Assembly: GCA_964624025.1 (NCBI GenBank) | Contig: CAZUXK010000003.1 | Location: 1 to 58,097, forward strand | Direction: 5' to 3' | Source: an uncultured Brevundimonas sp. | Lineage (GTDB): Bacteria; Pseudomonadota; Alphaproteobacteria; Caulobacterales; Caulobacteraceae | Length of the DNA: 58,097 nt | In this document: positions 9,914 to 25,693 of the stretch, in pieces | Layout: the number at the start of each line of letters is the position of its first letter | Numbering within the stretch: the stretch's first letter is position 1 | Notes under the pieces: generated by a model | The model's input: only the letters and a program-made list of their open reading frames with translations | The model's database searches: none | What the model was told of the DNA's origin: nothing | Position numbers and translations under genes: made by a program

Positions 9914-10569
9914 CCGTCCCGCAGGAAGTCCTGGGCGAACTCCGGCGCCTCGTCGTCGCCCGCGGGATCCTCCTCCTCGCCGCCCGGCCGCGCCGGGTCC
10001 GGCAGCTCGAAACCGGCCGGCACATTCATGTCCAACAGCCCCGCGGCCTTCATCTCCGCCAGCCCCGGCAGATCGGCCAGGCTGCCCAGTCCGAACTGCT
10101 CGAGGAACCGGTCCGCCGTGCCATAGGTCACCGGCCGCCCCGGCGAACGTCGCCGCCCCCGCAGCCGCACGAACCCCATCTCCAGCAGCTGGTCGAGGGT
10201 GCCCTTCGACATCGACACGCCGCGGACGCTCTCGATCTCCGCCCGCGTCACCGGCTGGTGATAGGCGATGATCGCCAGGGTCTCGAGCGCCGCCCGCGAC
10301 AGCCGCCGCGGCTCCTCCCGCTCCTCGGTCATCAGGAAGGCGAGATCCGGCGCGGTGCGGAAGCGCCAGCGGTCAGCGACGCACTCCAGCTCCACGCCCC
10401 GCCCCTGATACCGCGCCCGCAGGCCGGCGATGGCCCGGCCGACGTCCACGCCCTCCGGCAGGCGCGCCGCCAGATCCGCCGCCGACAGCGGCCCTGCCGC
10501 GGCGAACAGCAGGGCCTCCACCCGCCGCTCGATCTCGGCCTCTTCCGGCTGGAACCCAAGGTCGCTCAC
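9910..10569 (-). CDS. scpB: SMC-Scp complex subunit ScpB
   Basis: [40 protein letters not shown] motifs. Confidence 0.96.
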
Positions 10570-11390
10570 GGCGTGAGCTCCAGCGGCTGGCCGGTCGCCC
10601 GGCGGCGCAGGTACAGTGGCTCGAACGGGCCCGACTGGCGCACGTCCAGCGCCCCCTCCTTGACCAGCTCAAGTCCCGCCGACAGCGTCGAGGCGAGGCA
10701 GCTGGCGCGGCTGGGATCGCCCTCGGCCGTGCCCGGCTGCGGCGCCGCCTGCTCGAGGGTCGTCCAGGTCGCGAGGCGCGGCATGATCTCCCGCAGCCAG
10801 TCCCGCGCCGCCTCCAGCGGAAAGGCCTCGACCCGCTGGCCGGGACTGTACTGCCGCCCCGCCACCTTGCGGCGCTGCTCCACATAGGCCGCCATCAGCT
10901 CATAGAGGCCGGCGTCGATGCGGTCGGAAGGAATGATCACCGTGGCTTCGGGATCGCCGCGGGTGAACACGTCGCGCTTCAGCTGCGGCCGTTCCATCAG
11001 CCGGTCCGCCGCCTGCCGCATGGCCTCCAGCTTGCGCAGCCTGAAGGCCAGCGCCGCCGCCATCTGCTGCGCGTCGGGCTCTTCCGGCCGCCCCTTTTCC
11101 GTCCGCGGCAGCAGCAGCCGCGACTTCAGGAAGGCCAGCCAGGAGGCCATCACCAGATAGTCGGCGGCCAGCGCGAAGTTGCGCCGCCGCGCCTCGTGCA
11201 CAAAGGCGAGGTATTGCTCGGCCAGCCGGGTGATCGACAGCTTCAGCAGATCGACCTTCTGGCTGCGGGCCAGCGCCAGCAGCACGTGCAGCGGCCCCTC
11301 ATAGCCCTCGAGATCGACGACAAAGGCGTCCCGGGCGTCGATCTCCTCGGCCGCCGTGAAGTCGAGGCTCGGCTGGAACGCCTCCCTCAC
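10566..11390 (-). CDS. scpA: Segregation/condensation protein ScpA
   Basis: YEGPL..LL.L, ADYLVMA..L..LKSRLLLP, LEL.KEG; GTG start overlapping the nagZ stop. Confidence 0.95.
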   Translation of the reverse strand: MREAFQPSLDFTAAEEIDARDAFVVDLEGYEGPLHVLLALARSQKVDLLKLSITRLAEQYLAFVHEARRRNFALAADYLVMASWLAFLKSRLLLPRTEKGRPEEPDAQQMAAALAFRLRKLEAMRQAADRLMERPQLKRDVFTRGDPEATVIIPSDRIDAGLYELMAAYVEQRRKVAGRQYSPGQRVEAFPLEAARDWLREIMPRLATWTTLEQAAPQPGTAEGDPSRASCLASTLSAGLELVKEGALDVRQSGPFEPLYLRRRATGQPLELTP

Positions 11391-12436
11391 GCCTGGGCCT
11401 CCCCGACGTCGGGCCCCTTCGCGGCGTCCAGCCGCCCGGCCAGCATGGCGTCGAACCGGGCGCGGGCGGCCTCGAGGTCCAGAGGCTCGGGAGACCGCAC
11501 GATGCGGGCCAGCGCCGCCTGTGCCCGCCGGGCCGCCCCGCCGCGCAGCGGGCCGACGCCCTCGGCCACCTGCCGCATCTCGTCGAGATCGCCGGTCCAG
11601 TGGATGACGAGGTCGCACCCGGCCTTCAGCGAGGCCGCCGCCCGCTCGGTCAGGGTGCCGGACAGGGCGTTCATGCACAGGTCGTCCGACAGCAGCAGGC
11701 CGCCGAACCCCAGCCCCTCGCGGATCAGCCGGATGGCCTTGCGCGACTGGGTCGCCGGGCGTTTCCGGTCGATGGCGGTGAAGACAATGTGGGCGGTCAT
11801 GCCGATCGGCATGTCCGACAGGGCGCGGAACGGCGCGAAGTCCCAGGCTTCGAGGGTGTTGAGACCGACCTCGACCGTCGGCAGCTCCTTGTGGCTGTCG
11901 GCGAAGGCGCGGCCGTGCCCCGGCATGTGCTTGATCACCGGCAGCACACCGCCGGCCAGCAGCCCCTCGGCGGCGGCGCGGCCCAGCTGCGCCACCGTCG
12001 CCGGATCGCGGGCGTAGGCGCGATCCCCGATGATGTCGTGCGCCCCCGGAACCGGCACATCGAGCACCGGCACGCAGTCGATGTCGACGCCGACCGCCTT
12101 CAGGTCGTGGGCCATCAGCCGGCCGCCCAGCCGCGCCAGTTCGCGCGCCGCCAGAGGATCGTTGGTCGCCTTCAGATAGGCCTCGCCCGGGGGATACTTC
12201 GGCCAGTGCGGCGGCCCCATGCGCTGCACCCGGCCGCCTTCCTGGTCGATCAGGATCGGCGCGTGCCGGCCCACGCTTTCGCGCAGGGCGGCCGTCAGCG
12301 CCCGCACCTGGTCCGGGCTGTCGACATTGCGGCGAAACAGGATGAAGCCCCACGGCCGCACCTCGGCGAAGAAGGCGCGCTCGGCCGGCGTCAGCTCCAG
12401 CCCGGCGCAGCCATAGATCGCCGCCGACGCGTCCAA
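11387..12436 (-). CDS. nagZ: Beta-N-acetylhexosaminidase (GH3)
   Basis: ILFRRN, IDQEGGRVQR, KHMPGHG....DSH motifs; TTG start inferred. Confidence 0.95.
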   Translation of the reverse strand: MDASAAIYGCAGLELTPAERAFFAEVRPWGFILFRRNVDSPDQVRALTAALRESVGRHAPILIDQEGGRVQRMGPPHWPKYPPGEAYLKATNDPLAARELARLGGRLMAHDLKAVGVDIDCVPVLDVPVPGAHDIIGDRAYARDPATVAQLGRAAAEGLLAGGVLPVIKHMPGHGRAFADSHKELPTVEVGLNTLEAWDFAPFRALSDMPIGMTAHIVFTAIDRKRPATQSRKAIRLIREGLGFGGLLLSDDLCMNALSGTLTERAAASLKAGCDLVIHWTGDLDEMRQVAEGVGPLRGGAARRAQAALARIVRSPEPLDLEAARARFDAMLAGRLDAAKGPDVGEAQA

Positions 12437-12440
12437 GGCC

Positions 12441-13211
12441 TCAGCGCACCAGGCAGTCGCGGCCGGCGGCCCGCAGCGCGGCGCAGAAGGCTCGCGCCCG
12501 CTCCGGCGACAGGCCGGTGAACTGGGTGCGATAGACCGTCTGCCCGTTCGAGCTGGTGACTTCCTGCACCCGCTTGCCGGCGCCCGAGGCGAACTGCGGG
12601 AAGCCCGAGGCCACCGCTGCATACTCACGGTCGGCGATGGCGGTCGAGCCGAAGGCCCCGATCTGCACCGAAGCTGACCCGGTCGCCGGCGTCTCGGCCG
12701 CCCGATCGGCCCGGACCAGGGCGTCGCCGACGGGGTCCGCCGGACGGGCCGGAGCCGGGGTCGCAGGGGCGCGCGCCGCGGGCGCGGCCGGCGTCGGCGC
12801 GGCAGCCGGAGCCGGCAGGGCCTCGCGCGGCAGCGGCTCGGCCGCCGGCGGGGCGAAGGTCACCGGCCCGGGCGCCTGGGCGTCGGCATAGACGCTGACC
12901 CCCGCCTCGGGATCGACCGGCTGGGCGTCGACCGGCGCCTCGACCCGCAGCTCCCCGACCGGCTCGCCCACCGCCGGCGGCGCGTCCTCGGAGGCGCGCA
13001 GGCCGGAGCGGTAGAACAGCACCACGGCGACGATCAGGGCCAGCAGCACCGCCACGCTGACCATCAGGGTCACCGGCGGCCGGCTCGGCCCCGACGGAGC
13101 ACGCCGCGCGTCATAGCCGCGGTTGAACGGCAGGTCGTCGTCGGTCGGCGGCGTATAGGCGCCCCGTCCATGGTCGCGTTCGGACCGGCCGCGAGGATCG
13201 TCGTGGGACAT
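12441..13211 (-). CDS. ftsN: SPOR-domain cell division protein (FtsN-like)
   Basis: One TM helix, Pro/Ala linker, C-terminal SPOR domain (VQIGAF...FC..L...G..CLV); dgt-SPOR-nagZ-scpAB synteny. Confidence 0.8.
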   Translation of the reverse strand: MSHDDPRGRSERDHGRGAYTPPTDDDLPFNRGYDARRAPSGPSRPPVTLMVSVAVLLALIVAVVLFYRSGLRASEDAPPAVGEPVGELRVEAPVDAQPVDPEAGVSVYADAQAPGPVTFAPPAAEPLPREALPAPAAAPTPAAPAARAPATPAPARPADPVGDALVRADRAAETPATGSASVQIGAFGSTAIADREYAAVASGFPQFASGAGKRVQEVTSSNGQTVYRTQFTGLSPERARAFCAALRAAGRDCLVR

Positions 13212-13291
13212 GTCAGGCTCACCCGGATCGGCGGGACGGCCGAATCGGCCGCGCTCCGCGACAGTCTAGACGCCCCCGTGCCGCTTTCGAA

Positions 13292-14488
13292 TCACAAGTC
13301 GAGGGCGACATCGAGGCTGAACAGGTGCCGGTGCTCCTCGATCGCATAGCGGTCGGTCATGCCGGCGATGTAGTCGCACACCAGCCGCGCCCGCCTCGAA
13401 GGCTCCACCGACGCCGCCGTCGCCGCCCATTCGGTCGGCAGCACCGAGGGATCGGCGAGGAACAGGGCGAACATCTCGCGCAGCAGCCGCCGCGCCTGGC
13501 TGCGCGTGCGGTTGACGCGGTAGTGCCGGTACATGCGCTCGAACAGGAAGGCGCGCAGCCCGGTCAGCTGCTCCAGCATGCCGCGCGAGAAGGCCACCAT
13601 CGGCCGCCCCGCCAGACGCACGGCCTCGGGTCTGTCGATCCGGTCGGCCGCGAGCCGGGCCCGGGTCTCGGCCAGCACGTCATCGACCATGGCCCCGATC
13701 ATCCGCCGCACCGCCTCCAGCCGCACCATGCGGTCGTCCAGCCCTGGCCAGTCACGGCGCACCTCGCCCAGGATCGGCCCGATCAGCGGCAGGTCGGCCA
13801 GATCGGCGAGGGTGAACAGCCCCGCCTGCACCCCGTCGTCGACATCGTGGTTGTTGTAGGCGATGTCGTCGGCGATCGCCGCGACCTGGGCCTCCATCGA
13901 GGCGAAGGTGCCGAGCCGCAGGTCCCAGTCGCCGGCATAGGCGCCCACCGCCGCCCACGCCGGCTCGCCCAGCCGGTCCGTCACCGGGCCGTTGTGCTTG
14001 ATGACCCCCTCCAGCGTCTCCCAGCTCAGGTTCAGCCCCGGGAAGGCCGGATAGCGGCGCTCCAGCTCGGTGACCACGCGGAAGGTCTGGACATTGTGGT
14101 CGAAACCGCCGTGCTCGGTCATCAGCAGATGCAGCTCGTCCTCGCCCGCGTGCCCGAACGGCGGATGACCGAGGTCATGCGCCAGCGCCACGGCCTCGGC
14201 CAGGTCCACGTCCAGCTTCAGCGCCGCGGCAAGCGAGCGGGCGATCTGCGCCACCTCCAGCGAGTGGGTCAGCCGGGTGCGATAGTGGTCCCCCTCGTGG
14301 GCCACGAACACCTGGGTCTTCTCCTTCAGCCGGCGGAAGGCGGTGGCGTGGATGATGCGGTCGCGGTCGCGCGCGAAGGGGGTGCGCGTCCGGCTCTCCG
14401 CCTCGGGGTGGCGGCGGCCCCGGCTGGCGGCCGGGTCGCTGGCCCACGGCGCCAGACGACGGTCGACGGAAAGGCGATCGTGGCTCAC
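13292..14488 (-). CDS. dgt: Deoxyguanosinetriphosphate triphosphohydrolase
   Basis: [49 protein letters not shown] motifs. Confidence 0.96.
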
Positions 14489-14554
14489 GGGGATGCGGGC
14501 TTTCGTTCACGCCGGGGCTTTTCGCCCGGCCCTCGCCGGCACATATAGAAGGGC

Positions 14555-14932
14555 GTGAGCGACGCCCCAACCCACAGTTTCCAGATCACCCCGCGGGCCG
14601 CGCCCGACCACGGCCTGAGCCTGGCCGAGAGCGCCGCGCGCCGCCTCGCCCGCCTGTCCGAGGCAGAGGGCCGGCCCCTGCTGCTGCGCGTCGCCGTCGA
14701 TGGCGGCGGCTGTTCCGGCTTCCAGTACCGTTTCGAGCTCATCGAGGCGCCCGACGCGGACGACGTCATCGTCCGCTGCGACGGCCAGGCCGCCGCCGTG
14801 GATCCGGTTTCCCTCCCCCTGCTGCAGGGCTCGGAGATCGCCTTCGTCGACGAGCTGGTCGGGGCCCAGTTCGTGGTCCGCAACCCGAACGCCGCCTCGT
14901 CCTGCGGTTGCGGCGTCAGCTTCTCGATCTGA
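14555..14932 (+). CDS. erpA: Fe-S cluster insertion protein (ErpA/IscA, HesB family)
   Basis: GGGCSGFQY and NPNA.SSCGCG.SF motifs; divergent from dgt. Confidence 0.92.
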   Translation: MSDAPTHSFQITPRAAPDHGLSLAESAARRLARLSEAEGRPLLLRVAVDGGGCSGFQYRFELIEAPDADDVIVRCDGQAAAVDPVSLPLLQGSEIAFVDELVGAQFVVRNPNAASSCGCGVSFSI

Positions 14933-14952
14933 CGCCCCCGCGAGCAGCAGGC

Positions 14953-15603
14953 TTACGCCTCGACGCCGATCCCGATCGGACAGGTCACGCCGGTGCCGCC
15001 GATGCCGCAATAGCCGCCCGGGTTCCTGGCCAGATAGCCCTGGTGATAGTCTTCCGCGAAATAGTAGGGCCCCGCCTCAACGATCTCGGTGGTGATGCGC
15101 CCGCGCCCGGCCACCGTCAGCGCCGCCTGGTAGGCGTCGCGCGAGGCCTCGGCCTCGGCCCGCTGCGCCGCGTCGAGGACATAGATCGCCGACCGGTACT
15201 GGGTGCCGACGTCATTGCCCTGGCGCATGCCCTGGGTCGGGTCATGGTTCTCCCAGAAGGCCTTGAGCAGCGCGCCATAGCTGGTCGCGGTCGGGTCGAA
15301 CACCACCTGCACCACCTCGGCGTGGCCGGTCCGGCCCGAGCAGACCTCCTCATAGGTCGGGTTCGGCGTGAGGCCGCCGGCATAGCCGACCGAGGTCACC
15401 CACACGCCGGGTAGCTTCCAGAACACCCGCTCCACGCCCCAGAAGCAGCCCATGCCCAGGATCGCCGTCTGGAACCCCTCCGGATGCGGCCCCTTCAGCG
15501 GCCGGCCGTTGACCACATGGACCTCGTCGGTCTTCAGCGGCGTGTCGCGCCCCGGCAGGGCGGTGTCGGCGGTCGGCAGGGCGTCGGTCATCTTGCTCGG
15601 CAT
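14953..15603 (-). CDS. msrA: Peptide-methionine (S)-S-oxide reductase
   Basis: [28 protein letters not shown] motifs; ATG at 15603 with GGAG SD. Confidence 0.97.
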
Positions 15604-15721
15604 GGCGGGTCTCCGGATCGAGCCCGCCATATGGGGGCTCCGGCGCCGTTTGCCGAGAGGGCCGCTTGCCGCGCGCCCCCCGTTGATCTATCTCGCACCC
15701 CTTCCCGCCTGCGGTGGGTCC

Positions 15722-15811
15722 GGACAGGTGGCCGAGTGGTTGAAGGCGCACGCCTGGAACGCGTGTATAGGCGAAAGCCTATCGAGGGTTCGAATCCCTC
15801 TCTGTCCGCCA
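15722..15811 (+). tRNA. tRNA-Ser(GGA)
   Basis: Acceptor GGACAGG/TCTGTCC, anticodon arm CACGC-CT-GGA-AC-GCGTG, long variable arm, GGTTCGAATCC T-arm, G73 plus encoded CCA. Confidence 0.98.
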
Positions 15812-15991
15812 CCCCGCTTGAACTAAAACAATCGCTTAGGTGCCGTTTGCCAAGTGTGCCGTGCGGCGCACCCGCCGCGCGTCGAAGTTTCCCCCTTCAA
15901 GTGACATCGGCACACCGTGGCGCACTCCCGGCACAGTGTTGCGCCGCTTAAACAACCGTGCGTTCAATGGCAGATCAGGGGGGCGGCAATC

Positions 15992-16780
15992 ATGTGGCTG
16001 TTGGTTTATATTCCGGCGCTTGCCGGGATTTGGCGGTATCGCTTTTGGGGATTCTGGAAGTGGGTCGTCGCGATGTTTCTTTTGCAATCGGTTGCCGACT
16101 TTCTCTTCGCTGCGGGTGGCACCCTCGACCAGCCCCAAGGGGATGGGCTGATTACCGGGATGGTGCGTCGGGCAACCGACGACGGTGCTGAAGTCGCCTT
16201 GCTGGGCGTGGGCTTCTGGATCGTCTTCCTGATCGGCGTGGTCCTCATTGTCAGCCAGATGCGAAAAGCCGCGCGGCAACCGCCAGCGCACGCCGAAGTA
16301 GCCAGCAACGTGCCACTGCTGAGACGCACTGCGGAGACTGGCGGTCTGACCCTTGCGATAGCTGCGCTGATGTTCGTTTCGCTCTCGGCGATGATGTCGG
16401 AGAAGCCCTTGGCAGCGACGCAAGACGCTTACACGCTCGAACAAGAAGTCGCCGACGCAGCAGTGGAAATCGGCCGAACCGTGCCCCAGCAGATCGACCC
16501 TTCGACCAAGCTGGTCGGCGTTCGCTCGGCTGGCCGCGTCCTGATCTACGACTACGAGCTTTCGGAACGTGGCACGCCCGAACAGATGCGCGACTTCTTC
16601 GCGAAGAACTCGCTGGCGCGGGTTTGTGCGGATGCGGTGATGCGCCCAGAGATGCGGCGCGGCGTGACGTTCCGCTACTCCTACATGCTGATCGGGCAGG
16701 AGGCACCGGTCGAGATCGACGTGTCTGAGCCGGTCTGCGCCGCAACGGTTGGGGACCGCAGTGGCGGCACGCAACAGTAG
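15992..16780 (+). CDS. Membrane protein with a C-terminal pilotin-like (GspS/AspS2-type) domain
   Basis: Several hydrophobic helices, then P..ID..T.L...LIY.Y...VC...R.GVT..YSY...C; domain call is by eye. Confidence 0.55.
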   Translation: MWLLVYIPALAGIWRYRFWGFWKWVVAMFLLQSVADFLFAAGGTLDQPQGDGLITGMVRRATDDGAEVALLGVGFWIVFLIGVVLIVSQMRKAARQPPAHAEVASNVPLLRRTAETGGLTLAIAALMFVSLSAMMSEKPLAATQDAYTLEQEVADAAVEIGRTVPQQIDPSTKLVGVRSAGRVLIYDYELSERGTPEQMRDFFAKNSLARVCADAVMRPEMRRGVTFRYSYMLIGQEAPVEIDVSEPVCAATVGDRSGGTQQ

Positions 16781-17297
16781 CGCAGCGGGACCGCAGATCA
16801 CGCCAATCAGCGGCCTCGTCGATGACGCGGCCGACTACTTCAAGTCCGTGGTAATTCCTGCGGTCGAACTGGCATGCGCTCACCCTGCCTCGAAGTCCGT
16901 TGCCCTCTCCGCTTTCATCCTTCTTCACCACACTAAGGACTGGGCAAGGCATGAAGGTCTGATCACGTCGGAGGCCGACCTGTGGGCACATTGTCCCTAC
17001 GCCAATGTCATCGCGGAGATCGCGAACGGCGGGAAGCACCGGGTTGTCGGAGACAAGCATTTGGTAGCTGATCCAATGGTGGTGGAATTCCGGCTGTGCC
17101 GTTTCGGAGAAGGCGGCTACGGGGTCGGACCTTACGGCGTTGAAAATATCCAAGTGAAAGGCCGCAAGCTCGCGTCCGAAAAGCCGACGTGGCGATCTGT
17201 GCGAGCAGTCCTTCAGGAAGCTGTCGGCTGGTGGAAAACGACGCTCGATGAAGGCGCGGCTTCCAAGATTCAGGTTTCGCCCGGCGCATCACCCTGA
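16749..17297 (+). CDS. Hypothetical protein, possible HEPN-like fold (start uncertain)
   Basis: Helical ORF with A...LHH..DW and CP....IAEIANGGKH; no ATG start. Confidence 0.5.
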   Translation: MGTAVAARNSSAAGPQITPISGLVDDAADYFKSVVIPAVELACAHPASKSVALSAFILLHHTKDWARHEGLITSEADLWAHCPYANVIAEIANGGKHRVVGDKHLVADPMVVEFRLCRFGEGGYGVGPYGVENIQVKGRKLASEKPTWRSVRAVLQEAVGWWKTTLDEGAASKIQVSPGASP

Positions 17298-17579
17298 GAG
17301 GCTGGGGTGCCAGAACGACGTGAATGACGAAGCGTCTTCAAGTCGCTCAAACCAAATATCGAGCGAGCCGTCTTCCAACCCTGCGAAGCCCACCCATTGG
17401 CCTTTACACATTGCCTCCAGCCAAAGGCAAACGCTCCCGATCCAAGAGCGTTGGCGAGGAGTAGTTAGACGAGGAAATCTGGTTTGAGTGTGAACCCAGT
17501 CCTTCGATCCGATCTCTGTGACCTTCTGTAAGAGCACGAGTCTGTCTTCATCTTCTTCAACGATGATCTGTCTTGTCAT
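17289..17579 (-). CDS. Small hypothetical protein, phage-like
   Basis: 96 aa with ATG start; WL...C.GQW....IWFE..EDA..F..W pattern. Confidence 0.55.
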   Translation of the reverse strand: MTRQIIVEEDEDRLVLLQKVTEIGSKDWVHTQTRFPRLTTPRQRSWIGSVCLWLEAMCKGQWVGFAGLEDGSLDIWFERLEDASSFTSFWHPSLSG

Positions 17580-17685
17580 TACTCAATAGCTTCGCTTTGC
17601 GCGACGAAAACGTCGAACACGGTGACTTCCAAGTTGAGGGTTGAAGCGGCGCGGATGCTCGTGTCAGCTACTCCGCTACGCTGCC

Positions 17686-18198
17686 CTATTTGATTGGCGA
17701 AAACTCAGTGGACCACACAGTCCTCCGGTCCTCGGAATTCATGTGCTGTTCCTTCAGCACATAGCTCGCGGCCGTCGCGTGGTCGTCGATGATCCGCAAC
17801 GTGTAGGAGCCGGGAGGCACGATGTCGTTCCACACGCCGCCCCGTTCGCCGGGAAACATGCGATGGAACCGCAACAACCGATTGGTGCCCGGCGGCGTAG
17901 GTGGCACGCGCCACATTGCGTGGGCGTGAACGCTTCTGCGATCCCCTTCGAATGCGAAGAGGGCCAGCGATCTCGCTTCGCTCGGCAGCTTATGAAAGCG
18001 CCGCCCGAGGAGTTCTTCGTCAACCCGCCGATGAAGGCGGCGTAGATCGCCCTGAGCGGCCTCCAGACGGGTGTCTCGGTTCCACGACAGGGTAAGGACG
18101 TGGGTGAAGCGCAATGCCGCACAGAAGCGCGCCTGAGCCTCCTTAAAGGCTACTCGATTTCGCCCAACAAATGATGGCTCTTCGCTAATGTTCGACAT
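17686..18198 (-). CDS. Small HUH endonuclease / rolling-circle Rep-like protein
   Basis: Ordered RCR motifs: I THVLTL, II E....VHAHAMW, III SYVLK (YxxK). Confidence 0.75.
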   Translation of the reverse strand: MSNISEEPSFVGRNRVAFKEAQARFCAALRFTHVLTLSWNRDTRLEAAQGDLRRLHRRVDEELLGRRFHKLPSEARSLALFAFEGDRRSVHAHAMWRVPPTPPGTNRLLRFHRMFPGERGGVWNDIVPPGSYTLRIIDDHATAASYVLKEQHMNSEDRRTVWSTEFSPIK

Positions 18199-18255
18199 CA
18201 CTCATATCCATCTTCTACGATAGCGCACAGACTACTGGGCCGCCATTTGTTTTTG

Positions 18256-18288
18256 TATTTAAGCTAAGCGTCGAGCGGCTGGTAAATA
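18256..18288. promoter_or_regulatory. Back-to-back TAAATA boxes resembling the T4-type late promoter
   Basis: TATTTA at 18256-18261 (minus-strand box facing the HUH gene) and TAAATA at 18283-18288, 4 nt before ATG 18293, with no SD. Confidence 0.5.
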
Positions 18289-18292
18289 TTCG

Positions 18293-18580
18293 ATGAGATA
18301 CATCGAGATCATCCGCGAAGCCATGACAAGTTCTTCGCGAGCCGCAAAGACTATTAGCGACGCGGCAGCACGGAAGGCTGACGCACTTCGCACCTATCAA
18401 GGCAAGCTTCGCGTTGCGAAGGCGGCCGAAGCGAACGCCCGCAGCACCGAAGCGTCGGCGGCACGAACAGACCGTCTGGCCGCCAGCCAGCAAAAGCGAG
18501 CGGACGCTGCCGCCACCTATCAAGCTTCAATTCGCAGGGCCGACGATGCCATCCGTCGCTCGCGGCAACCCGACCGTTAG
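18293..18580 (+). CDS. Small Ala/Arg-rich helical protein with a capsid-targeting-sequence-like N-terminus
   Basis: 95 aa starting MRYIEIIRE-A; leaderless arrangement. Confidence 0.65.
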   Translation: MRYIEIIREAMTSSSRAAKTISDAAARKADALRTYQGKLRVAKAAEANARSTEASAARTDRLAASQQKRADAAATYQASIRRADDAIRRSRQPDR

Positions 18581-18608
18581 AAGCGTCCCCGACACGAAAT
18601 TCGGCCCC

Positions 18609-18684
18609 GTGGCACAGAGAAGTTGGCACGGCACCACTTAAACATATGAAACTCCTTGTGATTGATGGCAGTCAGGCTGGGATT
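18609..18684 (-). other. Internal inverted att-like site (core plus arm-type repeats)
   Basis: Reverse complement of 18666-18684 is AATCCCAGCCTGACTGCCA, 14/19 identical to the tRNA end; TTGGCACG lies 35 bp from this core, as it does at attR. Confidence 0.6.
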
Positions 18685-18731
18685 GCTTGTGATTCAAGCC
18701 GTCCAGAGCCGTTGCGCCCTTCGATGTCACC

Positions 18732-18803
18732 GATGTAGCGGACCACAATATGCGAGTCAAGTCGTATTTCCCCACTTGACGCATTGTTTGAAGATGGTAT
18801 GTT
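18732..18803. promoter_or_regulatory. Divergent housekeeping-type promoters around an inverted repeat
   Basis: Plus strand TTGACG(18776)-N16-TATGTT toward MarR/integrase; minus strand TTGACT(18760)-N15-GCTACATC; inverted repeat GTCAAGT/ACTTGAC at 18756-18780. Confidence 0.5.
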
Positions 18804-18845
18804 CTCTCCATCGTCGCAGCGAGCGGCGGACTTGAAAGATGCGAG

Positions 18846-19304
18846 ATGAAGCGACCGGTCCAGCATGGTGTCGAAGGCACAGATACAGATCGCGTGATGG
18901 CCGCGATGAACGGTCTCGCCGACCACGCCGCGACGTTCGCGGCAATTGAGTCGAGCGTCCGCACGATTGCCGAACTGATGCCCGCGCGCGTGTCATTGCG
19001 GCAGGGCCTCGCCTTCCTATTCGTCGTTCACGCCAACGCTCGGGGCCGCCGAGTGACGATGACAGACGTTCGCCAATCCTTCAGCGAAACGGAACACGGC
19101 TCGGTCAGCGTTGGCCAGTCCATCGCGAAGTCGTTTCAGGTCTTCTTTGAAGCCAGCAAGCAAGAGCCGAACGGCCTGAACTGGGTTCGGCAGGAAGCCG
19201 ACCGTGACGACCGGCGAAAGAAGTATCTGGTCATCACCGCCGAGGGCGCGGAGGTCGCACTGAAGATGGTTGCGCCTCCGCAGATCGAAGGCGACGAAGC
19301 ATGA
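18846..19304 (+). CDS. MarR-like winged-helix protein
   Basis: C-terminal GLNWVRQEAD.DDRRKKYLVIT.EG wing motif; ATGA coupling to the integrase. Confidence 0.8.
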   Translation: MKRPVQHGVEGTDTDRVMAAMNGLADHAATFAAIESSVRTIAELMPARVSLRQGLAFLFVVHANARGRRVTMTDVRQSFSETEHGSVSVGQSIAKSFQVFFEASKQEPNGLNWVRQEADRDDRRKKYLVITAEGAEVALKMVAPPQIEGDEA

Positions 19305-20401
19305 AATCCTTCGCCCTCAAGCCCAAGTCATCGGGCATCCTCTACGTCGAGTTTTACGAAGGAGAGGTTCGGCGACGCATCACCACGGGATCACGAGATA
19401 CGAAGGTCGCACGTCAACGCGCGCGAGAAATCGTTAGCGGAAACGTCGTCACTCCGACCCCCTCCGCACCGTCGAAATCGAGCGGGATGACGATGGGCCA
19501 ACTGCTTGATCTGTGCTGTAAAACTGTCTGGGCACCCCGCAATGTTCGATCACAGCGGACGGTGAAATCCAATGCCAAAATCCTTCGCGAGATGATCGGC
19601 GACGAGCCGGTTTCCGACATGACGTTCACCCGACTGGAGCTTCTTGTTCAGGAGCTTTTCAACCGTGGCTACGCTGCCGGAACAGTTCATCGGAAGATGT
19701 GCGCCGTCAGCAAAGCCCTGAACTATGCCGCGAAGATCACGGGGCCGAACGGTAAACCTGTCTTCCATGGCAAGCCGTCGATGCCGACTGTGGTGACGAA
19801 GAATTCTCGAAGCCGCGTCATCACGGCTGCGGAAGAGAAAGCAATTTTCTCTGCCATCGAAAAGCGAGCGAACAGCGAACCGGCTCGGTCATGGACGCGG
19901 TTCGCGCACTTGATCAGGTTCTTGCTCGATACGGGATGTCGCTTGGGTGAAGCCCTCAATTTGAGCGACGCGCTGATCGAATCCGATGGCGACGCGACCT
20001 TCGTCACCTTCCCGCGATACTCGACGAAGAACGACGAGCCTCGCAAGCTGCCGCTATCGAAAGCTATCGTCGCGAGCTTGCCCTACCTCCGGTCATGCGC
20101 CGTAGGTGAGAAGCTGTTTCCGATGAAGTCGCAGACCGTCTGGTATATGTGGAACTCGATCCGCTCTGACCTTGTGGCAGCGGGTCTTCCAGTTGCCGAT
20201 GTCGTTCTTCACACGATGCGCCACACCTGCCTGACGCGCCTCGCCCGCAGCGGCCTCGTGCCGCTGGAGCGTATCAGCGACTGGGCAGGGCACTCGACTA
20301 TTCAGGTCACGATGGACCACTATCGGCACATGCTGCCCGCCGACAAGCTCTCGACTCTCGCCGTCATTGAGGACATCGCAGCCGCAAATGCCAACCAATA
20401 G
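19301..20401 (+). CDS. Tyrosine recombinase / phage integrase
   Basis: Catalytic R (TGCRLGE), K (TKND), HxxR (HTMRH), H (AGHS) and Y (DHYRH) all intact. Confidence 0.96.
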   Translation: MKSFALKPKSSGILYVEFYEGEVRRRITTGSRDTKVARQRAREIVSGNVVTPTPSAPSKSSGMTMGQLLDLCCKTVWAPRNVRSQRTVKSNAKILREMIGDEPVSDMTFTRLELLVQELFNRGYAAGTVHRKMCAVSKALNYAAKITGPNGKPVFHGKPSMPTVVTKNSRSRVITAAEEKAIFSAIEKRANSEPARSWTRFAHLIRFLLDTGCRLGEALNLSDALIESDGDATFVTFPRYSTKNDEPRKLPLSKAIVASLPYLRSCAVGEKLFPMKSQTVWYMWNSIRSDLVAAGLPVADVVLHTMRHTCLTRLARSGLVPLERISDWAGHSTIQVTMDHYRHMLPADKLSTLAVIEDIAAANANQ

Positions 20402-20504
20402 TGTTGTCCCACTTTGCGAATTATCACACTATTCTTTTTGTCGATACTATAGTGGCCACGCTTGGCACGCTTAATACTGATAACGTATTGTTATTGTTGT
20501 GTTG

Positions 20505-20525
20505 AGTCCCGCTCTGTCCGCCACC
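20505..20525 (+). other. attR (displaced tRNA-Ser 3' end)
   Basis: AGTCCCGCTCTGTCCGCCACC versus AATCCCTCTCTGTCCGCCACC in the tRNA. Confidence 0.88.
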
Positions 20526-20692
20526 GCCGCCCCCCTCTAGTCTCGGTCTCCTCGTCGCTCCCGCCAGGAGCCCGACACGCCGGGCGCACACCCCTTCAAA
20601 CTCATCCGATCGCCGCCGCTTCTGAGCCCCTGACAGGGGCTTCGGGGCCATTTGGCGCGCCCCGTTCTCAAGGGTCGAAAGATCCGGATGAG

Positions 20693-20874
20693 TTTCCCTG
20701 CTAACAGGGAAAACATCAGGGAATTTTGGCGGAAAGCGAAGCCCGCCCAGCGCAGGCATCGGCGCGAAATGCCCACGCTGCCTGCATTTGCGGCGCGCGG
20801 TCGAGTTCCGCCGGCTGCAGGAAGCAGGGAATTTTTCGCGCCCGATCAGGGAAGCGTCGGCGGATTTCAGGGAA
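20693..20874. repeat. CAGGGAA repeat array downstream of the serine recombinase
   Basis: Palindrome TTTCCCTG-CTAA-CAGGGAAA (20693-20712) and direct copies at 20717, 20825, 20847 and 20868. Confidence 0.8.
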
Positions 20875-22465
20875 GCAGAGCCGCCCGCTGATCGTCCCAG
20901 GCCAGGGGGATCGCACGATGGCGCAGGTCCTCCAGACAGAGCCCCGGCTTCTGTCGGCCCTCCAGGAAGGCGAGCTGCACGTCCGGCGCCAGATAGGCCA
21001 GCCGGACGAGGTCGCGCTGATGGGGTGAGGCAGGAGATCGCACGATCATCCCCTCATCTCCGGCGTGGTCGGCCAGGATCGCATGGGCCGCCTTCAGCGC
21101 CTTGATCAGCGCCTGGCTCAGCCGCGCCTGCCTCGGCGCCTCGCCCTGGACCCAGGCGCGCCCACCCCGGAACTGAAGCCGGCGCGGCACGTGGAGCCAG
21201 AGCCTGGCGCCGTCCAGCGACAGGCGCTCGCCGGGCTCAAGCAGACGCGTCAGCCGCTCGATCACCATCGGAACCGACCGCTCCTCTTCGGCCAGGACGC
21301 GGGTCGCCAGCGCGATCTGGACCGCGGCATCGTGCACCTCAACCCGTGTCAGAAGCGTTTGCGGGTCGACGTGGGGGGCAAGGCGATAGAGCACCCCGAT
21401 GACCCACCGCTCGGTCGCGAGGGCCGGCAGGCGGTGGATGGCGCCGGGGCGAGGGTCGCGGGTGCGGCGGATGATGGTGCTGGAGACATAGTACCGGTGA
21501 GGCGCCCCGCTGCGGCCGTAGGCGTGCATCGGGGTCATGGGCACGCCATCGGCGTCGAAGATCTTGCCCTTCAGCGGCAGTAGCGGCGGCGGGGGCGCGA
21601 TGCGGTCCTTACGCTTGCTCGCTGGCCCGCGGCGGGCCCGGGTCGCCAGCTGCGCCTGGACCCGACCAAAAGTGGTCTGGTCGATGATCGGCGGATGGTC
21701 GCTGGGATAGGCCTGATCCTTGTGCGGGACCATGCCGAGGTAGGTCTTGTTGCGCAGCAGATGGTAGAGGGCCCCGTTATCGAAGGGCGTCCCGCCGAAC
21801 ACTGCCCCGGTCGTCGCGGTCCAGCGTTTGGAGACCCGCCCCTCGGCTTTCAGCTCCTGCTTCAGGGCCGGCACCGACTGCAGCTCCAGGAACCGGCGGA
21901 AGATGTGCCGGACCAGCTCGGCCTCCGCCTCGTTGAGCTTCAGCTTGCGGCCGGCGGGATCGTATCCGAGGGGCGGGCATCCCCCCATCCACATGCCCTT
22001 CTTTTTGGAGGCGGCGATCTTGTCGCGGATCCGCTCGCCGGTGACCTCCCGCTCGAACTGCGCGAACGACAGCAGCACATTCAGTGTCAGCCGTCCCATG
22101 GAGGTGGTGGTGTTGAAGGCCTGGGTCACCGACACGAACGAGACGCTGTGCCGATCAAACACCTCCACGATCCGGGCGAAGTCGCTCAGCGCCCGGGTCA
22201 GGCGATCGACCTTGTAGACCACCACCACATCGACCTTGCCGGCCGCGACGTCGGCCAGCAGCCTCTGGAGCCCTGGCCGCTCCATGGTGCCGCCCGAGAT
22301 CCCGCCGTCATCGTAGGCCGTCGCCAGCGCCGACCACCCCTCCCCCGCTTGGCTCTTCACATAGGCCTCGCAGGCCTCGCGCTGGGCATGGAGCGAGTTG
22401 AAGTCCTGCTCCAGCCCTTCCTCGGAGGACTTGCGGGTGTAGATGGCGCAGCGGAGCCTAGGCAT
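20867..22465 (-). CDS. Large serine recombinase
   Basis: CAIYTRKSS, DDGG.SGG..ERPGL, VYKVDRLTR, LLSFAQFERE, G..PLGYD motifs; 532 aa. Confidence 0.95.
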   Translation of the reverse strand: MPRLRCAIYTRKSSEEGLEQDFNSLHAQREACEAYVKSQAGEGWSALATAYDDGGISGGTMERPGLQRLLADVAAGKVDVVVVYKVDRLTRALSDFARIVEVFDRHSVSFVSVTQAFNTTTSMGRLTLNVLLSFAQFEREVTGERIRDKIAASKKKGMWMGGCPPLGYDPAGRKLKLNEAEAELVRHIFRRFLELQSVPALKQELKAEGRVSKRWTATTGAVFGGTPFDNGALYHLLRNKTYLGMVPHKDQAYPSDHPPIIDQTTFGRVQAQLATRARRGPASKRKDRIAPPPPLLPLKGKIFDADGVPMTPMHAYGRSGAPHRYYVSSTIIRRTRDPRPGAIHRLPALATERWVIGVLYRLAPHVDPQTLLTRVEVHDAAVQIALATRVLAEEERSVPMVIERLTRLLEPGERLSLDGARLWLHVPRRLQFRGGRAWVQGEAPRQARLSQALIKALKAAHAILADHAGDEGMIVRSPASPHQRDLVRLAYLAPDVQLAFLEGRQKPGLCLEDLRHRAIPLAWDDQRAALLP

Positions 22466-22883
22466 CGGCCCCGCTGCGCTTCACAAGACCAAAGAACAGC
22501 GGCCCGCTCCAGGCGCCGCCCGATATGCCCCGGGCGACAGCCGTCAGGCTGCGGTAGGTGCGGCCGTCCCACTCGAACCCCGCCGGGGTGCGCCGGACCG
22601 TGTGCGCCCGGCCCTGCCACTCCCGCGTCAGGATCGTGCCCACGGGGACCTCGAGCGCGCCGCGCCTGGGTGGCTTCTGGTCCTGCAGCTTGCGCATGGC
22701 CTGCGGGCAGAGGCCGCCGAAGGCCTCGGCCTGGATCCGCCAGGCCAGCATCAGCCCCAGAAGCTCGCGCGACCGCAGCCTGGGCTCTGGGCCGCCGTAG
22801 CGGGCGACCCACGCCTGCCTCAGGCCCTGAAGGTCCAGGCGCTCCAGCGCCCGGACCTCCTCGGTGATCGCCGCCCGCGTCAC
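22458..22883 (-). CDS. DUF2924 family protein
   Basis: LAWRIQ..AFGGL, GT.L.REWQG..H.V, SLTAVA..ISG..WSGP.FFGL. Confidence 0.9.
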   Translation of the reverse strand: MTRAAITEEVRALERLDLQGLRQAWVARYGGPEPRLRSRELLGLMLAWRIQAEAFGGLCPQAMRKLQDQKPPRRGALEVPVGTILTREWQGRAHTVRRTPAGFEWDGRTYRSLTAVARGISGGAWSGPLFFGLVKRSGADA

Positions 22884-23233
22884 GTCGTGCCCCGCGCGTT
22901 CGCGTCGGCGATGCGGTAGACCCTGCCGGCGTCGGTTTTGTCCGACGTGATCGTCAGGCCGTGCTTGCGCTTGAGCGCCCCCGCCAGGGCCCCACGGACC
23001 GAGTGCGGCAGCCAGTCAGTCGCCTCGCTCATCTGCGCGACCGTCGCGCCCTCGGGGCGGCGCATCAGCGCCACGATGGTCCCGAGCTTGCCGGCGGGCG
23101 CGCCAGGCGCACCGGCGCTCTTAGGCGGCTTGCTGGCCCCATGATCGCTACGGCTGGCGACCCTGCGCTCGGGGGACTGCATCCCGCTGATCGCGGGACG
23201 GGTGGACTTCGATGCAGGCTTACTCTTGGCCAT
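22880..23233 (-). CDS. DUF3489 family winged-helix protein
   Basis: K...IVAL..RPEGAT......TDW.PHSVRGALAG.LK.K.G...GRVYRI; ATG at 23233 with GAGGAG SD. Confidence 0.88.
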   Translation of the reverse strand: MAKSKPASKSTRPAISGMQSPERRVASRSDHGASKPPKSAGAPGAPAGKLGTIVALMRRPEGATVAQMSEATDWLPHSVRGALAGALKRKHGLTITSDKTDAGRVYRIADANARGTT

Positions 23234-23355
23234 TGGGCCCTCCTCTTGTTTGAGCAGGCCCCGTGGTGGGCCTGCTACCGAGGAAGGCCCGCGAGGGGCG
23301 GGCACGAAGCGACCAATGCTTCGACAGCGGATGAAGTCCAGAGCACTATCGGGTC

Positions 23356-23997
23356 ATGAACGCTGATCACCCCTACCCCTACGAAGACGCCGCAGAACTG
23401 TTTGCCTTCGTCGCCTATCCCAAGGACGAAGCACGTCAGGCCCAAGCTGTGGCGACCTTGCGCCGGCGTTATGCAGCTTGGCTCGTGGATGCGACAGGTG
23501 AAGCAGCTAAGCCTCATCTGAGGGTGACCGACCTGCTCTCTGATGCAGGAAAGGTGGAGGCGTACAGCCGCAAATTGGAGCCGCTGTTGCGGAAGCGCCT
23601 TTTGGCGGGGCACATCGGCCGCGCCTACATCGAAGACGAACTCCAACAGCGTCCGACGAGGCTAACGCACGCCGCTATGGCCGAACGCGAAGGCGTAAAC
23701 GAGCGCGGCCTTCGGCGCCTGCTCAACGAAGCAGCCCCTGCTTTTCAGTTGTGCACGGCCCTGGCTGAAACCTTCCAGCGCGGTCGCCGACAGGCGCACA
23801 GCTCGGGGGGCGAAGAACCGGATATCTTCACCCTCATGCGCGATCCCGGCTTCGTCCCGAGCGTCCTGGGCCTAGCGCACATTCACGAAGCGCTGATCGC
23901 CCGGGTCGTCCAGCTGGAAGCGGTGCGGAGGCGAATGCTCCGACTTGAGGAGTCAAGGGCCATTTTCCGCCAGATGACAGCCCATCACACGGGCTAG
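23356..23997 (+). CDS. Hypothetical protein, possible HTH
   Basis: 213-aa ORF with ATG; LTHAAMAEREGVNERGLRRLL segment is HTH-like. Confidence 0.55.
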   Translation: MNADHPYPYEDAAELFAFVAYPKDEARQAQAVATLRRRYAAWLVDATGEAAKPHLRVTDLLSDAGKVEAYSRKLEPLLRKRLLAGHIGRAYIEDELQQRPTRLTHAAMAEREGVNERGLRRLLNEAAPAFQLCTALAETFQRGRRQAHSSGGEEPDIFTLMRDPGFVPSVLGLAHIHEALIARVVQLEAVRRRMLRLEESRAIFRQMTAHHTG

Positions 23998-24036
23998 TGC
24001 AGTTGGCACCAGCTCCCTTTCGAAGGGAGCTCCACA

Positions 24037-24763
24037 TTGCCACACATCCAACCGCTGAAGATCGAAATGGCGCCGCTCGCCGAACTGACGGTGAGCCCGC
24101 GTCACACTCGCCGAGTGACCCGGCCGCAGCTTCAGCGCGTTAAGCGCAGCATCTCCAAGTTCGGCTTCATTGTTCCGATCCTCATCGACGCTTGCGGTCG
24201 CATCATTGCCGGAGCCGTTCGCGTCGAGGCGGCCAAGGCACTCGGCTACAGCGAGGCCCCGTCCATCCGGCTCGAACACCTGACGCCGGAGCAGGTCGAA
24301 GCCTTCGCCATCGCCGAGAATCGCTTGGTCGAGACCGGCGAATGGGACGACGACATGCTCGCTGTGGTCTTCAAGGACCTCAGCGCGCTGGACCTTGATT
24401 TCGGCCTCGACATCACCGGGTTCACCCTGCCGGAGATCGACCTGAAGATCGCCGGCATCGACCAGGGAGATGACGCGGCCGACGATCCTGACGACCGGGC
24501 CGTCCCGCCGGGGCCCTCTGTAGTCCAGCATGGAGAACTCTGGACCCTCGGCCGGCATCGCCTCATCTGCGGCTCCTGTCTTGAGACAGAGGTTTGGACC
24601 CGGCTGATGGCGGGCGTGGTCGCCGCGATCATCATCGCTGACCTCCCCTACAACTGCGCCATCACAGGGCACGTCAGCTCGACCGGCAAGTTCCGCGAGT
24701 TCGCCATGGCCTCGGGCGAGATGGGCGAGGCCGAGTTCCAGGCCTTCATGCTTCAGGCCTGCC
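24037..24763 (+). pseudogene. ParB-N + N6/N4 DNA methyltransferase, truncated by IS6
   Basis: SI.KFGF..PILID, IAENRL.E..EWD, W.LG.HRL.CG and ADLPYN (DPPY-like) motifs; runs into the IS terminal repeat before the SAM-binding motif. Confidence 0.88.
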
Positions 24764-25578
24764 GGCGCTGTCAGGATAACTGTGCCGGGTTGAGAAGCGC
24801 CCTGCCCTGCTGAAATCAGGCGACAGCGGCTGACCATGCAGCGTCGGCTTCGGCGCGGAAGCGGCGAAGTGTGGGTCTGCTGATCAAATGGCGTTGGATG
24901 TTGAAGGTGTTGTAGATCGCCGCGTGGGTTGTGAGGAATCTCTGGGCTGAGGCTTGGGATTTGAACCGCTGCTGTTGTCGTTCTCGTCGTCGGATCGGCA
25001 GGTGGGAGTTCTCAACGCGGTTGTTCTCCCGGAGCCGGCCCGGCCGGTGCAGATGCCTCAGATTCAGTTGATCGAGAGCGGCTCCGTACGACGCCAGGCC
25101 GTCGGTCGTGATCGTCTGCGGCTCGACCGGCTGGTTGTGGAGGAGGCGCTTCAAGAGCCTGATCGCCGCCTCTGTGTCCCGCCGGCGCTGGACTACAAGG
25201 TCCAGGACCTCACCTTCGTCGTCGACGGCCCGCCACAGATACAACCGCTTGCCGCCGATCCAGCAGACCATCTCGTCCAGATGCCAGCGCGGCGACGGAG
25301 CCGGCCGATGACGCCTCAATCTTTTGGCGATCAGAGGTCCGAACTTGATGGTCCAACACCGGATCGTCTCGTAGCTGACATCGATCCCGCGCTGCGCCAA
25401 CAGCTCCTCGACGTCTCGAAAACTGAGGCTGAATCGAAAGTACAGCCATACGGCGTGGCAGATTACGTCAGCCGGAAATCGGTGACGCTTGAACGAAATC
25501 GGCTTCACGAAACACCATCCCAGACAGCGGCTTATGCCGACTTTGCCGGTGACCTTTTGGCGTTTGCCTGACAGCACC
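24764..25578 (-). mobile_element. IS6-family insertion sequence (815 bp)
   Basis: Imperfect terminal repeats GGCGCTGTCAGGATAAC / GGTGCTGTCAGGCAAAC around a DDE transposase. Confidence 0.92.
24816..25508 (-). CDS. IS6-family transposase, intact
   Basis: FKRHRFP, WHLDE, YLWRAVD.EG, TTDG, NNRVE.SH motifs; GTG at 25508. Confidence 0.95.
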   Translation of the reverse strand: MKPISFKRHRFPADVICHAVWLYFRFSLSFRDVEELLAQRGIDVSYETIRCWTIKFGPLIAKRLRRHRPAPSPRWHLDEMVCWIGGKRLYLWRAVDDEGEVLDLVVQRRRDTEAAIRLLKRLLHNQPVEPQTITTDGLASYGAALDQLNLRHLHRPGRLRENNRVENSHLPIRRRERQQQRFKSQASAQRFLTTHAAIYNTFNIQRHLISRPTLRRFRAEADAAWSAAVA

Positions 25579-25693
25579 CAACGGCGTATTGTCGGTGGGC
25601 TGCCCATGTCTGCAGTTGGCGCCGAGCTGCCCCCTCCCCTCCCAGCTTTGCGCCTAAGCTTCATTCCTCGAAACGCAGCCGCCTGTTCGCTGA

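What the first reader, a model, noticed from the sequence alone, without database searches (positions are those of the whole stretch)
15800..20525. Minimal tRNA-Ser-integrated element: integrase + MarR + HUH Rep + phage-late-type gene, a candidate new phage satellite or hitchhiker
Seen: 14-bp att duplication, intact tyrosine integrase coupled to a MarR-like wHTH, a 170-aa HUH protein, four other cargo ORFs, lower GC, and no capsid, terminase, primase/helicase or conjugation genes. Known: PICI and PICMI satellites use primase/helicase and AlpA, P4 uses alpha primase, and mobilisable IMEs use long relaxases. Inference: this gene set fits none of those. With the TAAATA boxes, the capsid-targeting-like peptide and the third att site, it looks like a ~4.7-kb element triggered by, and travelling with, a large lytic phage.
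Basis: partly seen in the sequence, partly recalled or inferred. Interest (0 to 1): 0.9.

Follow-up and report, generated by a model that had tools for sequence, protein, structure and literature searches.

The report
Candidate satellite of giant T4-like phages
A 4.7-kb mobile island in a bacterial tRNA gene belongs to a family of small islands whose replication gene and a small protein sit behind the late-gene promoter motif of giant T4-like phages, so it likely waits for such a phage to infect and would then copy itself and ride out in the phage's particles.

Summary
The element is real: 14-bp att cores (15800, 20512), 58.7% GC in a 71.1% genome. Near-identical copies (~95%) in other runs end exactly at attR.

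It joins two modules:
(1) The MarR-like wHTH and integrase are the known lysogeny module of temperate T7-like phages (S2B, jiawei), which carry the same tRNA-Ser core and arm repeats.
(2) A core that recurs in islands with unrelated recombinases: HUH Rep, ORF3 and the 95-aa ORF5.

Three traits of that core point to T4-like jumbo phages:
- TAAATA boxes, often 4-5 nt before the start codon as in huge phages (host leaderless spacing peaks at 6).
- ORF5's MR[YFWL]xE[IL] N-terminus; two Atu_ph07 proteins that begin with a similar motif are virion proteins.
- ORF3, whose family is otherwise found only in huge-phage loci.

The 'third att' is an arm-type repeat without a core. Excision, replication and packaging were not observed, and no helper is identified. 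Best reading: a helper-dependent satellite of T4-like jumbo phages (0.55); main rival, a phage-triggered defence island (0.25). I found no description in my literature searches.

The parts
15722..15811 (+). tRNA-Ser(GGA), the integration target, left intact
15800..15813 (+). attL core CTCTGTCCGCCACC; phage S2B shares 10 bp and phage jiawei 12 bp of it downstream of their integrase
15840..15953 (.). GGCAC/GTGCC repeats next to attL, inferred integrase arm-type sites; the same motif flanks the cores of S2B and jiawei
15992..16780 (+). orf1, 262 aa, three weakly hydrophobic segments; variable cargo (replaced in run X6)
   Evidence: only a sub-threshold Pfam hit
16749..17297 (+). orf2, up to 182 aa, variable cargo; 8 of 12 listed substitutions at third codon positions; a HEPN-like look is by eye and recalled only
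   Evidence: (no family)
17289..17579 (-). ORF3, 96 aa, directly after Rep; small protein family found after Rep in 6 islands and in many copies in huge-phage loci
17686..18198 (-). 170-aa stand-alone HUH endonuclease, predicted rolling-circle initiator (H91-x-H93, Y146-x-x-K149)
18256..18261 (-). TAAATA box 57 nt before the Rep ATG, inferred phage late promoter for Rep-ORF3
18283..18288 (+). TAAATA box 4 nt before the ORF5 ATG, inferred leaderless phage late promoter
18293..18580 (+). ORF5, 95 aa, net charge +10, predicted helical hairpin, N-terminus MRYIEIIRE of the jumbo-phage type
18776..18803 (+). sigma-70-like promoter match (9 of 12, with TG) upstream of wHTH-int; a consensus match only
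18846..19304 (+). MarR-like wHTH, 35% identical to S2B gp57
19301..20401 (+). tyrosine integrase, 45% identical to S2B gp56, catalytic residues intact
20453..20476 (+). arm-type repeat next to attR
20512..20525 (+). attR core; matches from other runs stop at 20524 and go on into different DNA

Best explanation
The island is a mobile, tRNA-integrated element that is likely a satellite of T4-like jumbo phages: the helper's late sigma factor would read its TAAATA boxes, the HUH protein would copy the excised circle by rolling-circle replication, and the copies would be packaged into helper heads. Shown: the att cores, the intact unit in other samples, the gene set, and the recurrence of TAAATA, Rep, ORF5 and ORF3 across islands with unrelated recombinases. 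Inferred steps: (1) the S2B-type integrase inserts and excises the element at tRNA-Ser, under a host promoter and wHTH control; (2) on infection, a gp55-like sigma factor turns on Rep-ORF3 and ORF5; (3) Rep nicks an origin not yet found and makes concatemers; (4) a headful terminase, which in T4 is loaded with the help of gp55, takes late-transcribed island DNA as substrate, PICMI-style, with no capsid remodelling; (5) ORF5 enters the prohead through its N-terminal peptide and, being basic, binds or escorts the DNA.
For: TAAATA is the commonest of the 15 A4T2 hexamers in 11 islands not chosen by that motif (18 in 57 kb; words that do not overlap it 2-6), but 14th of 15 in the host assembly. 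Island boxes at leaderless starts lie 4-5 nt before the start codon, as do 58 of 111 matches in IMG/VR loci (overlapping loci counted twice). Host TA-hexamers peak at 6 nt (255 vs 66, 99, 110) and none is TAAATA. The box precedes portal, prohead protease and terS genes in Sinorhizobium phage Phosso, portal and protease in Atu_ph07, and capsid, gp22 and sheath genes in Cr30; it is absent from S2B. 56 of 58 ORF5 relatives keep the N-terminal motif while the bodies diverge. Atu_ph07 gp196 and gp199, which begin with a similar motif, are in its virion mass-spectrometry table (14 and 1 peptides; gene numbers inferred from portal=198 and matching masses). A profile built from five other islands finds ORF3 (E 0.0014 among 29,177 frames) and otherwise phage-scan loci. 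5 of 6 genomes found by ORF5 alone have an HUH Rep within 2.5 kb. A scan by promoter plus peptide only returned 6 of 79 metagenome loci with an adjacent Rep (two are near-copies). T4 precedent for the capsid targeting sequence and for gp17-gp55 coupling: PMC3012670 (passages).
Against: No attP circle or empty-attB joint was listed in 8 runs; these are contigs only, and the joint table was cut. No island was found in IMG/VR (searches found none; 0 of 103 loci). No replication origin or packaging site was found, and there is no small terminase. No cultured Caulobacteraceae jumbo myophage was identified. In the cultured phages the boxes are leadered (17-38 nt); the leaderless form was seen only in uncultured phages of unknown host. 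Of the 6 ORF5 genomes, 3 have an exact box within 30 nt of ORF5, 1 a one-mismatch box and 2 none. 25 of the 26 more distant HUH loci lack a box or ORF5 at the gene. A late-expressed Rep leaves little time before lysis (inference).
Confidence: 0.55

Rival explanations
1. Phage-triggered defence island: the late promoters act as a tripwire, ORF5 enters and spoils proheads, ORF3 mimics a phage protein, and Rep amplifies the island or nicks phage DNA; the island spreads by other means and is not specifically packaged.
For: The same promoter and peptide evidence. Related islands carry methyltransferase- or nuclease-like cargo by eye. No packaging gene or virome copy was found.
Against: No PADLOC match for 6 ORFs. 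A replication initiator under phage control, an intact integrase and ~95% identical copies with different flanks fit self-spreading better. Defence and hitchhiking are not exclusive.
Confidence: 0.25
2. The island integrates into the helper's own genome (huge phages carry many tRNA genes) and is expressed and carried from there.
For: tRNA-targeting integrase; huge-phage loci hold large tRNA arrays; promoters match phage late genes.
Against: No island gene in the IMG/VR scans, in 103 viral loci or among GenBank phages by ORF5; located islands sit in bacterial contigs.
Confidence: 0.08
3. A plasmid-like integrative element run by host promoters; TAAATA is a host sigma-70 -10 box and the phage likeness is ancestry or chance.
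For: Leaderless genes are common in this host (spacing peak); the wider HUH family (912 clusters) mostly lacks the box.
Against: Spacing is 4-5, not 6; no host leaderless start has TAAATA; no conserved -35 by eye; two unrelated jumbo-phage protein traits occur together with the box.
Confidence: 0.07
4. Deletion remnant of an S2B-like T7 prophage that picked up unrelated genes.
For: The wHTH+int pair, att core and arm repeats match S2B and jiawei; 5 of 15 wHTH loci carry T7-type phage genes.
Against: No S2B gene other than int and wHTH in the element. The unit is intact in several runs. The core recurs with other tyrosine integrases and serine recombinases. Island integrases group apart from prophage ones, though with weak support (83, quick tree).
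Confidence: 0.05

Closest known systems
PICMI satellites of virulent vibriophages (PMC10803314, passages read)
   Same: Small integrated island of few genes, no capsid remodelling genes, a gene overlapping the integrase by ATGA; PICMI replicates by rolling circle and is packaged as a concatemer, which is the model proposed here.
   Different: PICMI needs AlpA, a primase and the fis site; this element has an HUH Rep, tRNA sites, late-type promoters and a head-targeting-like protein, and its predicted helper is a jumbo T4-like phage.
MarR+integrase lysogeny module of temperate T7-like phages (S2B, jiawei, LUZ100; PMC10134795, passages read)
   Same: Adjacent wHTH and integrase (35% and 45% to S2B), same tRNA-Ser core and arm repeats.
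   Different: No RNA polymerase, replication or virion genes; the module is exchangeable within the island family.
T4 late promoter and capsid targeting sequence of internal proteins (PMC3012670 and PMC5259590, passages read)
   Same: TAAATA core; a short conserved N-terminal peptide on otherwise diverse proteins.
   Different: Here both sit on a bacterial island without a sigma factor; the peptide follows the jumbo-phage form, and targeting is not shown.
SIRV1 ORF119 (PDB 2X3G) and other rolling-circle HUH initiators
   Same: Best structural match (Foldseek E 9.9e-4; Z 7.7, rmsd 4.0, 112 aligned); HUH and YxxK motifs.
   Different: 12% identity; no Pfam family; the Z value is in the range common to ferredoxin-like folds; no origin found.
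T7 islands of enterobacteria (Chen and Schneider 2006; recalled, paper not held)
   Same: Small tRNA islands with an integrase and promoters that only a lytic phage could read.
   Different: Those carry T7-type polymerase promoters; these carry T4-type late boxes and a Rep.
PLE, PICI, P4, tycheposons, VEIMEs (named in review PMC11389934, passages read; features recalled)
   Same: Integrative, helper-dependent lifestyle (inferred here).
   Different: None of their packaging, capsid-size or primase genes was detected; the review has no occurrence of 'jumbo', 'T4-like' or 'HUH'.

Membership tests
PICMI | integrase | tested here: met
PICMI | AlpA regulator and primase | tested here: not met
   no such Pfam or PHROG hit among the element's 7 main ORFs; definition
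PICMI | integration at fis | tested here: not met
   site is tRNA-Ser
PICMI / satellites in general | helper-induced excision, replication and packaging | not testable with these tools
   contigs of 8 runs listed no attP or attB joint, which cannot show absence
PICI / P4 / PLE | primase-helicase or RepA, terminase or capsid-size genes | tested here: not met
   features recalled
Temperate T7-like prophage | MarR-like gene directly upstream of integrase, tRNA att | tested here: met
Temperate T7-like prophage | RNA polymerase, DNA polymerase, virion genes | tested here: not met
   20 S2B proteins gave no tblastn hit in window 8001-28000
T7 islands (recalled) | tandem T7-type promoters | tested here: inconclusive
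   a 14-mer repeat scan of S2B and jiawei gave no promoter consensus to search with
HUH rolling-circle initiator | HUH motif and catalytic YxxK | tested here: met
HUH rolling-circle initiator | fold | tested here: met
   best hit 2X3G in two searches, viral HUH domains further down; modest scores
HUH rolling-circle initiator | cognate nick site or origin | tested here: inconclusive
   no conserved non-coding block among 17 islands
T4-type late promoter | TAAATA core, no -35, about 5 nt to the start | tested here: met
T4-type late promoter | dependence on a gp55-like sigma factor | not testable with these tools
   needs transcript mapping in infection
Capsid targeting sequence | conserved N-terminal peptide shared with virion proteins | tested here: met
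   (two Atu_ph07 proteins checked, one with a single peptide; no non-virion control set)
Capsid targeting sequence | import into the prohead and cleavage | not testable with these tools
   needs virion proteomics
Mobilisable IME | MOB relaxase | tested here: not met
   170-aa HUH with no Pfam relaxase hit; no plasmid relative
Known defence system | PADLOC model match | tested here: inconclusive
   0 of 6 proteins matched a 2023 library

The most novel reading that the evidence does not exclude
A previously undescribed family of satellites of T4-like jumbo and huge phages: 4-7 kb islands that hand control of a rolling-circle initiator to the helper's late sigma factor and load their own protein into the helper's head with a copy of its capsid targeting peptide, swapping recombinases and Rep types freely. 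The islands would also mark Caulobacteraceae as hosts of 400-600 kb uncultured phages.
Probability: 0.45. Interest if true: 0.92.

Novelty: new variant of a known kind. Interest (0 to 1): 0.8.

Why it matters
The review I checked lists satellite families with no mention of jumbo or T4-like helpers. A satellite of jumbo T4-like phages would show a new way to parasitise a lytic phage: borrow its late promoter for timing and its head-targeting peptide for entry, with no packaging genes of its own. It is directly testable with a 4.7-kb element. It offers a sequence handle for linking uncultured huge phages to hosts, and a natural probe of how proteins are loaded into jumbo heads. If the defence reading is right, it is a new phage-sensing route, through the late sigma factor.

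Tried and rejected
- Third att core: rejected.
- T7-prophage remnant: rejected as main reading.
- Host sigma-70 origin of TAAATA: disfavoured.
- int+MarR+HUH as family signature: rejected. Most of the 15 wHTH loci are T7-like prophages or other islands; only L026 has a Rep and ORF5.
- Whole HUH family as phage-linked: rejected. Box-linked Reps need 5 changes on the tree, with one 7-row group (89/88) holding the window's protein.
- IMG/VR scans for HUH and ORF5 found nothing; two alignments were too diverse to scan with.
- ORF5: no GenBank phage hit, no significant fold match (best E 0.09), Atlas hits 0.77-0.79 to viral hypothetical clusters, a lead only. Not found with profile A6 in 360 class-wide genomes.
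- HUH: no plasmid hit. No origin found.
- No attP or attB joints in 8 of the 21 runs listed.
- Substitution pattern did not support ORF3 (2 of 6 at third positions; partial tables); its support is by homology.
- The Atlas gave no answer for HUH or ORF3.
- Chen and Schneider 2006 was not held.
- No complex prediction was run.
- Literature searches without a describing paper: (listings only).
Full report
1. Observation. The window holds tRNA-Ser(GGA) at 15722-15811. Its 3' end is repeated as a 14-bp core at 20512-20525, and the 12-bp core occurs only twice in the 2.55-Mb assembly. The 4.7 kb between is 58.7% GC against 71.1%. It encodes orf1, orf2, ORF3, an HUH protein, ORF5, a wHTH and an integrase. 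Only the integrase has a Pfam hit above threshold; its catalytic residues are present. The host family is inferred to be Caulobacteraceae, because ORF5 relatives, one identical to a protein in a same-family genome, carry the NCBI labels Caulobacteraceae bacterium or Phenylobacterium.

2. It moves as a unit. I laid 8 of the 21 listed runs, all contigs. One 17.1-kb contig in X10 spans 15812-20524 with 217 differences and a diverged 70-bp stretch. X3 covers the whole element in four pieces (202 differences) while the host flank matches only in short, diverged pieces. X6 has the same site, Rep and wHTH-int but 1,316 other letters in place of the orf1-ORF3 stretch. Matches stop at 20524 and continue into at least two flanks unlike the window's. 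None of 19 same-genus tRNA-Ser sites shows element genes in the next 0.3-1.5 kb; the 18 printed all differ. No attP circle or empty-site joint was listed; contigs drop rare forms and one table was cut.

3. The integration module is known. Among 50,697 phage records, the only two hits of the wHTH and the two best hits of the integrase are adjacent genes of the T7-like phages S2B (35%, 45%) and jiawei. Downstream of their integrases lie 10 and 12 bp of the same tRNA-Ser core with the same GGCAC repeats. A MarR-like gene co-transcribed with the integrase is described for LUZ100 and other temperate T7-like phages (PMC10134795, passages). The wHTH occurs in 14 of 400 family genomes; of 15 loci, 5 carry T7-type genes and the rest are other islands or lone genes.

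4. The HUH protein. It has 912 relatives at 50% clustering, nearly all of the 150 listed being 140-200 aa. E84, Y146 and K149 are invariant and H91 and H93 nearly so in 104 sequences. The model (pLDDT 81.7) matches SIRV1 ORF119 best in two searches, with modest scores. 5 of 6 listed substitutions are at third positions. I take it as a rolling-circle initiator; no origin was found.

5. A recurring core. An ORF5 profile hit 6 of 400 family genomes. Five have an HUH Rep within 2.5 kb: two of the window's type and three of a larger Rep_1-like type (PF01446 E 0.16). Three sit in tRNA islands of 5-6 kb with 12-, 17- and 51-bp repeats. Their recombinases differ: S2B-type, distant tyrosine types, or serine types. 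ORF5 has 58 relatives at 90% clustering; 56 begin MR[YFWL]x[EQ][ILF] and all are basic. It folds as a helical hairpin with no significant match. ORF3 follows Rep in six islands. ORF5 was not found in 360 class-wide genomes, while the HUH family was in 21 of 400 family and 6 of 390 class genomes.

6. The core points to T4-like jumbo phages. (a) TAAATA: 2 of the 9 copies in the assembly lie back to back before Rep and ORF5. In 11 islands not chosen by the motif it is the top A4T2 hexamer (18; 16 without the window), against rank 14 of 15 in the host. In other family loci it ranks third (47 in 498 kb), and these include other islands. It precedes head genes in Phosso, Atu_ph07 and Cr30 and is absent from S2B. 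ATAAATA is the predicted late promoter of jumbo phage CBB (PMC5259590, passages), and group 2 jumbo phages encode sigma factors and gp33 (PMC7824862, passages). (b) Spacing: a pattern of box plus peptide hit 103 IMG/VR stretches, several on contigs of 400-607 kb; 58 of 111 matches have 4-5 nt before ATG, as do the island leaderless starts, whereas host leaderless hexamers peak at 6 nt and never read TAAATA. (c) Peptide: the motif opens 2 of 26,055 host frames. It begins a small protein between portal and protease genes in an uncultured phage whose protease is closest to Phosso, PA5oct-like phages and Atu_ph07. Two Atu_ph07 proteins with a similar start are in its virion table (PMC6102473 supplement; passages). 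In T4 such a peptide is the only conserved part of internal head proteins (PMC3012670, passages). (d) ORF3: a profile without the window's protein finds it and phage-scan loci, with 9 and 11 copies in two of them after iteration. (e) The pattern alone, run on metagenomes (127 stretches, scan truncated, 79 with flanks analysed), returned 6 loci with an adjacent Rep, among them L168 with int (60%), wHTH, ORF5, Rep and ORF3.

7. Limits. The link is a subclade trait. Among 31 loci found by HUH alone, the five closest have a box at Rep or at an adjacent peptide-led gene, and 25 of the other 26 do not; the tree needs 5 changes. Two of six ORF5 genes have no box directly upstream. No island turned up in viral collections. 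Cultured jumbo phages use leadered boxes. No helper is known.

8. Mechanism. I commit to a helper-dependent satellite (0.55): integrase excises, the helper's late sigma factor fires Rep-ORF3 and ORF5, Rep makes concatemers, the headful terminase takes them, and ORF5 enters the head. In T4, extracts lacking gp55 package concatemers about 100-fold less well, which offers a route from late promoters to packaging without a terminase gene; PICMI shows concatemer packaging without capsid remodelling (PMC10803314, passages). All steps after integration are inferred. Rivals: phage-triggered defence (0.25), integration into the phage genome (0.08), host-run element (0.07), T7 remnant (0.05).

9. Novelty. 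It works like a PICMI-type hitchhiker but fails PICMI, PICI, P4 and IME membership tests. Searches (listings) found no description, and the review PMC11389934 (passages) has no 'jumbo', 'T4-like' or 'HUH'. Subscription papers and bioRxiv supplements are not covered. Earlier notes of this scan report T4-type boxes in E. coli islands and small HUH islands elsewhere (unchecked), but nothing like this sequence. Verdict: new variant of a known kind, interest 0.8.

Noticed in passing
window 20867-25703: A second mobile remnant follows attR: large serine recombinase, DUF2924, DUF3489 and a ParB_N protein, then a transposase-like ORF (IS6-like by recall). The tRNA-Ser site seems to collect elements in tandem.
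   Followed up: partly
L323-L340 (same-genus tRNA-Ser sites): All 18 printed downstream sequences differ and many look like island ends, so this tRNA is an integration hotspot.
   Followed up: partly
L024:7952-18045 (G321): S2B-type int+wHTH facing away from a compact block of T7-type RNA polymerase, portal, capsid and tail genes, with no DNA polymerase or primase hit between them; a possible capsid-forming T7-like satellite or remnant.
   Followed up: no
L023:7578-10545 (G032): 2.9-kb island at tRNA-Ser(GCT) with little more than int and wHTH.
   Followed up: no
L018 (OR464703): Phage jiawei is deposited with a mycobacterial host but carries the S2B-like module and a 12-bp match to this tRNA-Ser core; its host label may be wrong (inference).
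   Followed up: no
L101, L103: The ORF3 family is expanded to 9 copies in 10 kb and 11 in 5.6 kb of phage contigs and has no Pfam or PHROG match for the members tested.
   Followed up: partly
L192, L198, L172, L156: Lower-GC loci with other small peptide-led proteins; L192 has an HUH gene 5 nt behind TAAATA and 7 boxes in 4.3 kb, suggesting parallel families in other hosts.
   Followed up: partly
L319, L320, L313, L314: Distant HUH islands without ORF5 still hold 2-4 TAAATA boxes (four TGTAAATA in L319); the phage link may be wider than counted.
   Followed up: no
window 16749-17297: orf2 shows a HEPN-like pattern by eye (recalled), without the usual arginine; no family hit.
   Followed up: partly
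L050-L152, L155-L280: Huge phages with 44-58% GC use leaderless TAAATA-N4-6-ATG late genes for many peptide-led proteins, several with YHG motifs typical of ADP-ribosyltransferase-like domains (label recalled).
   Followed up: partly
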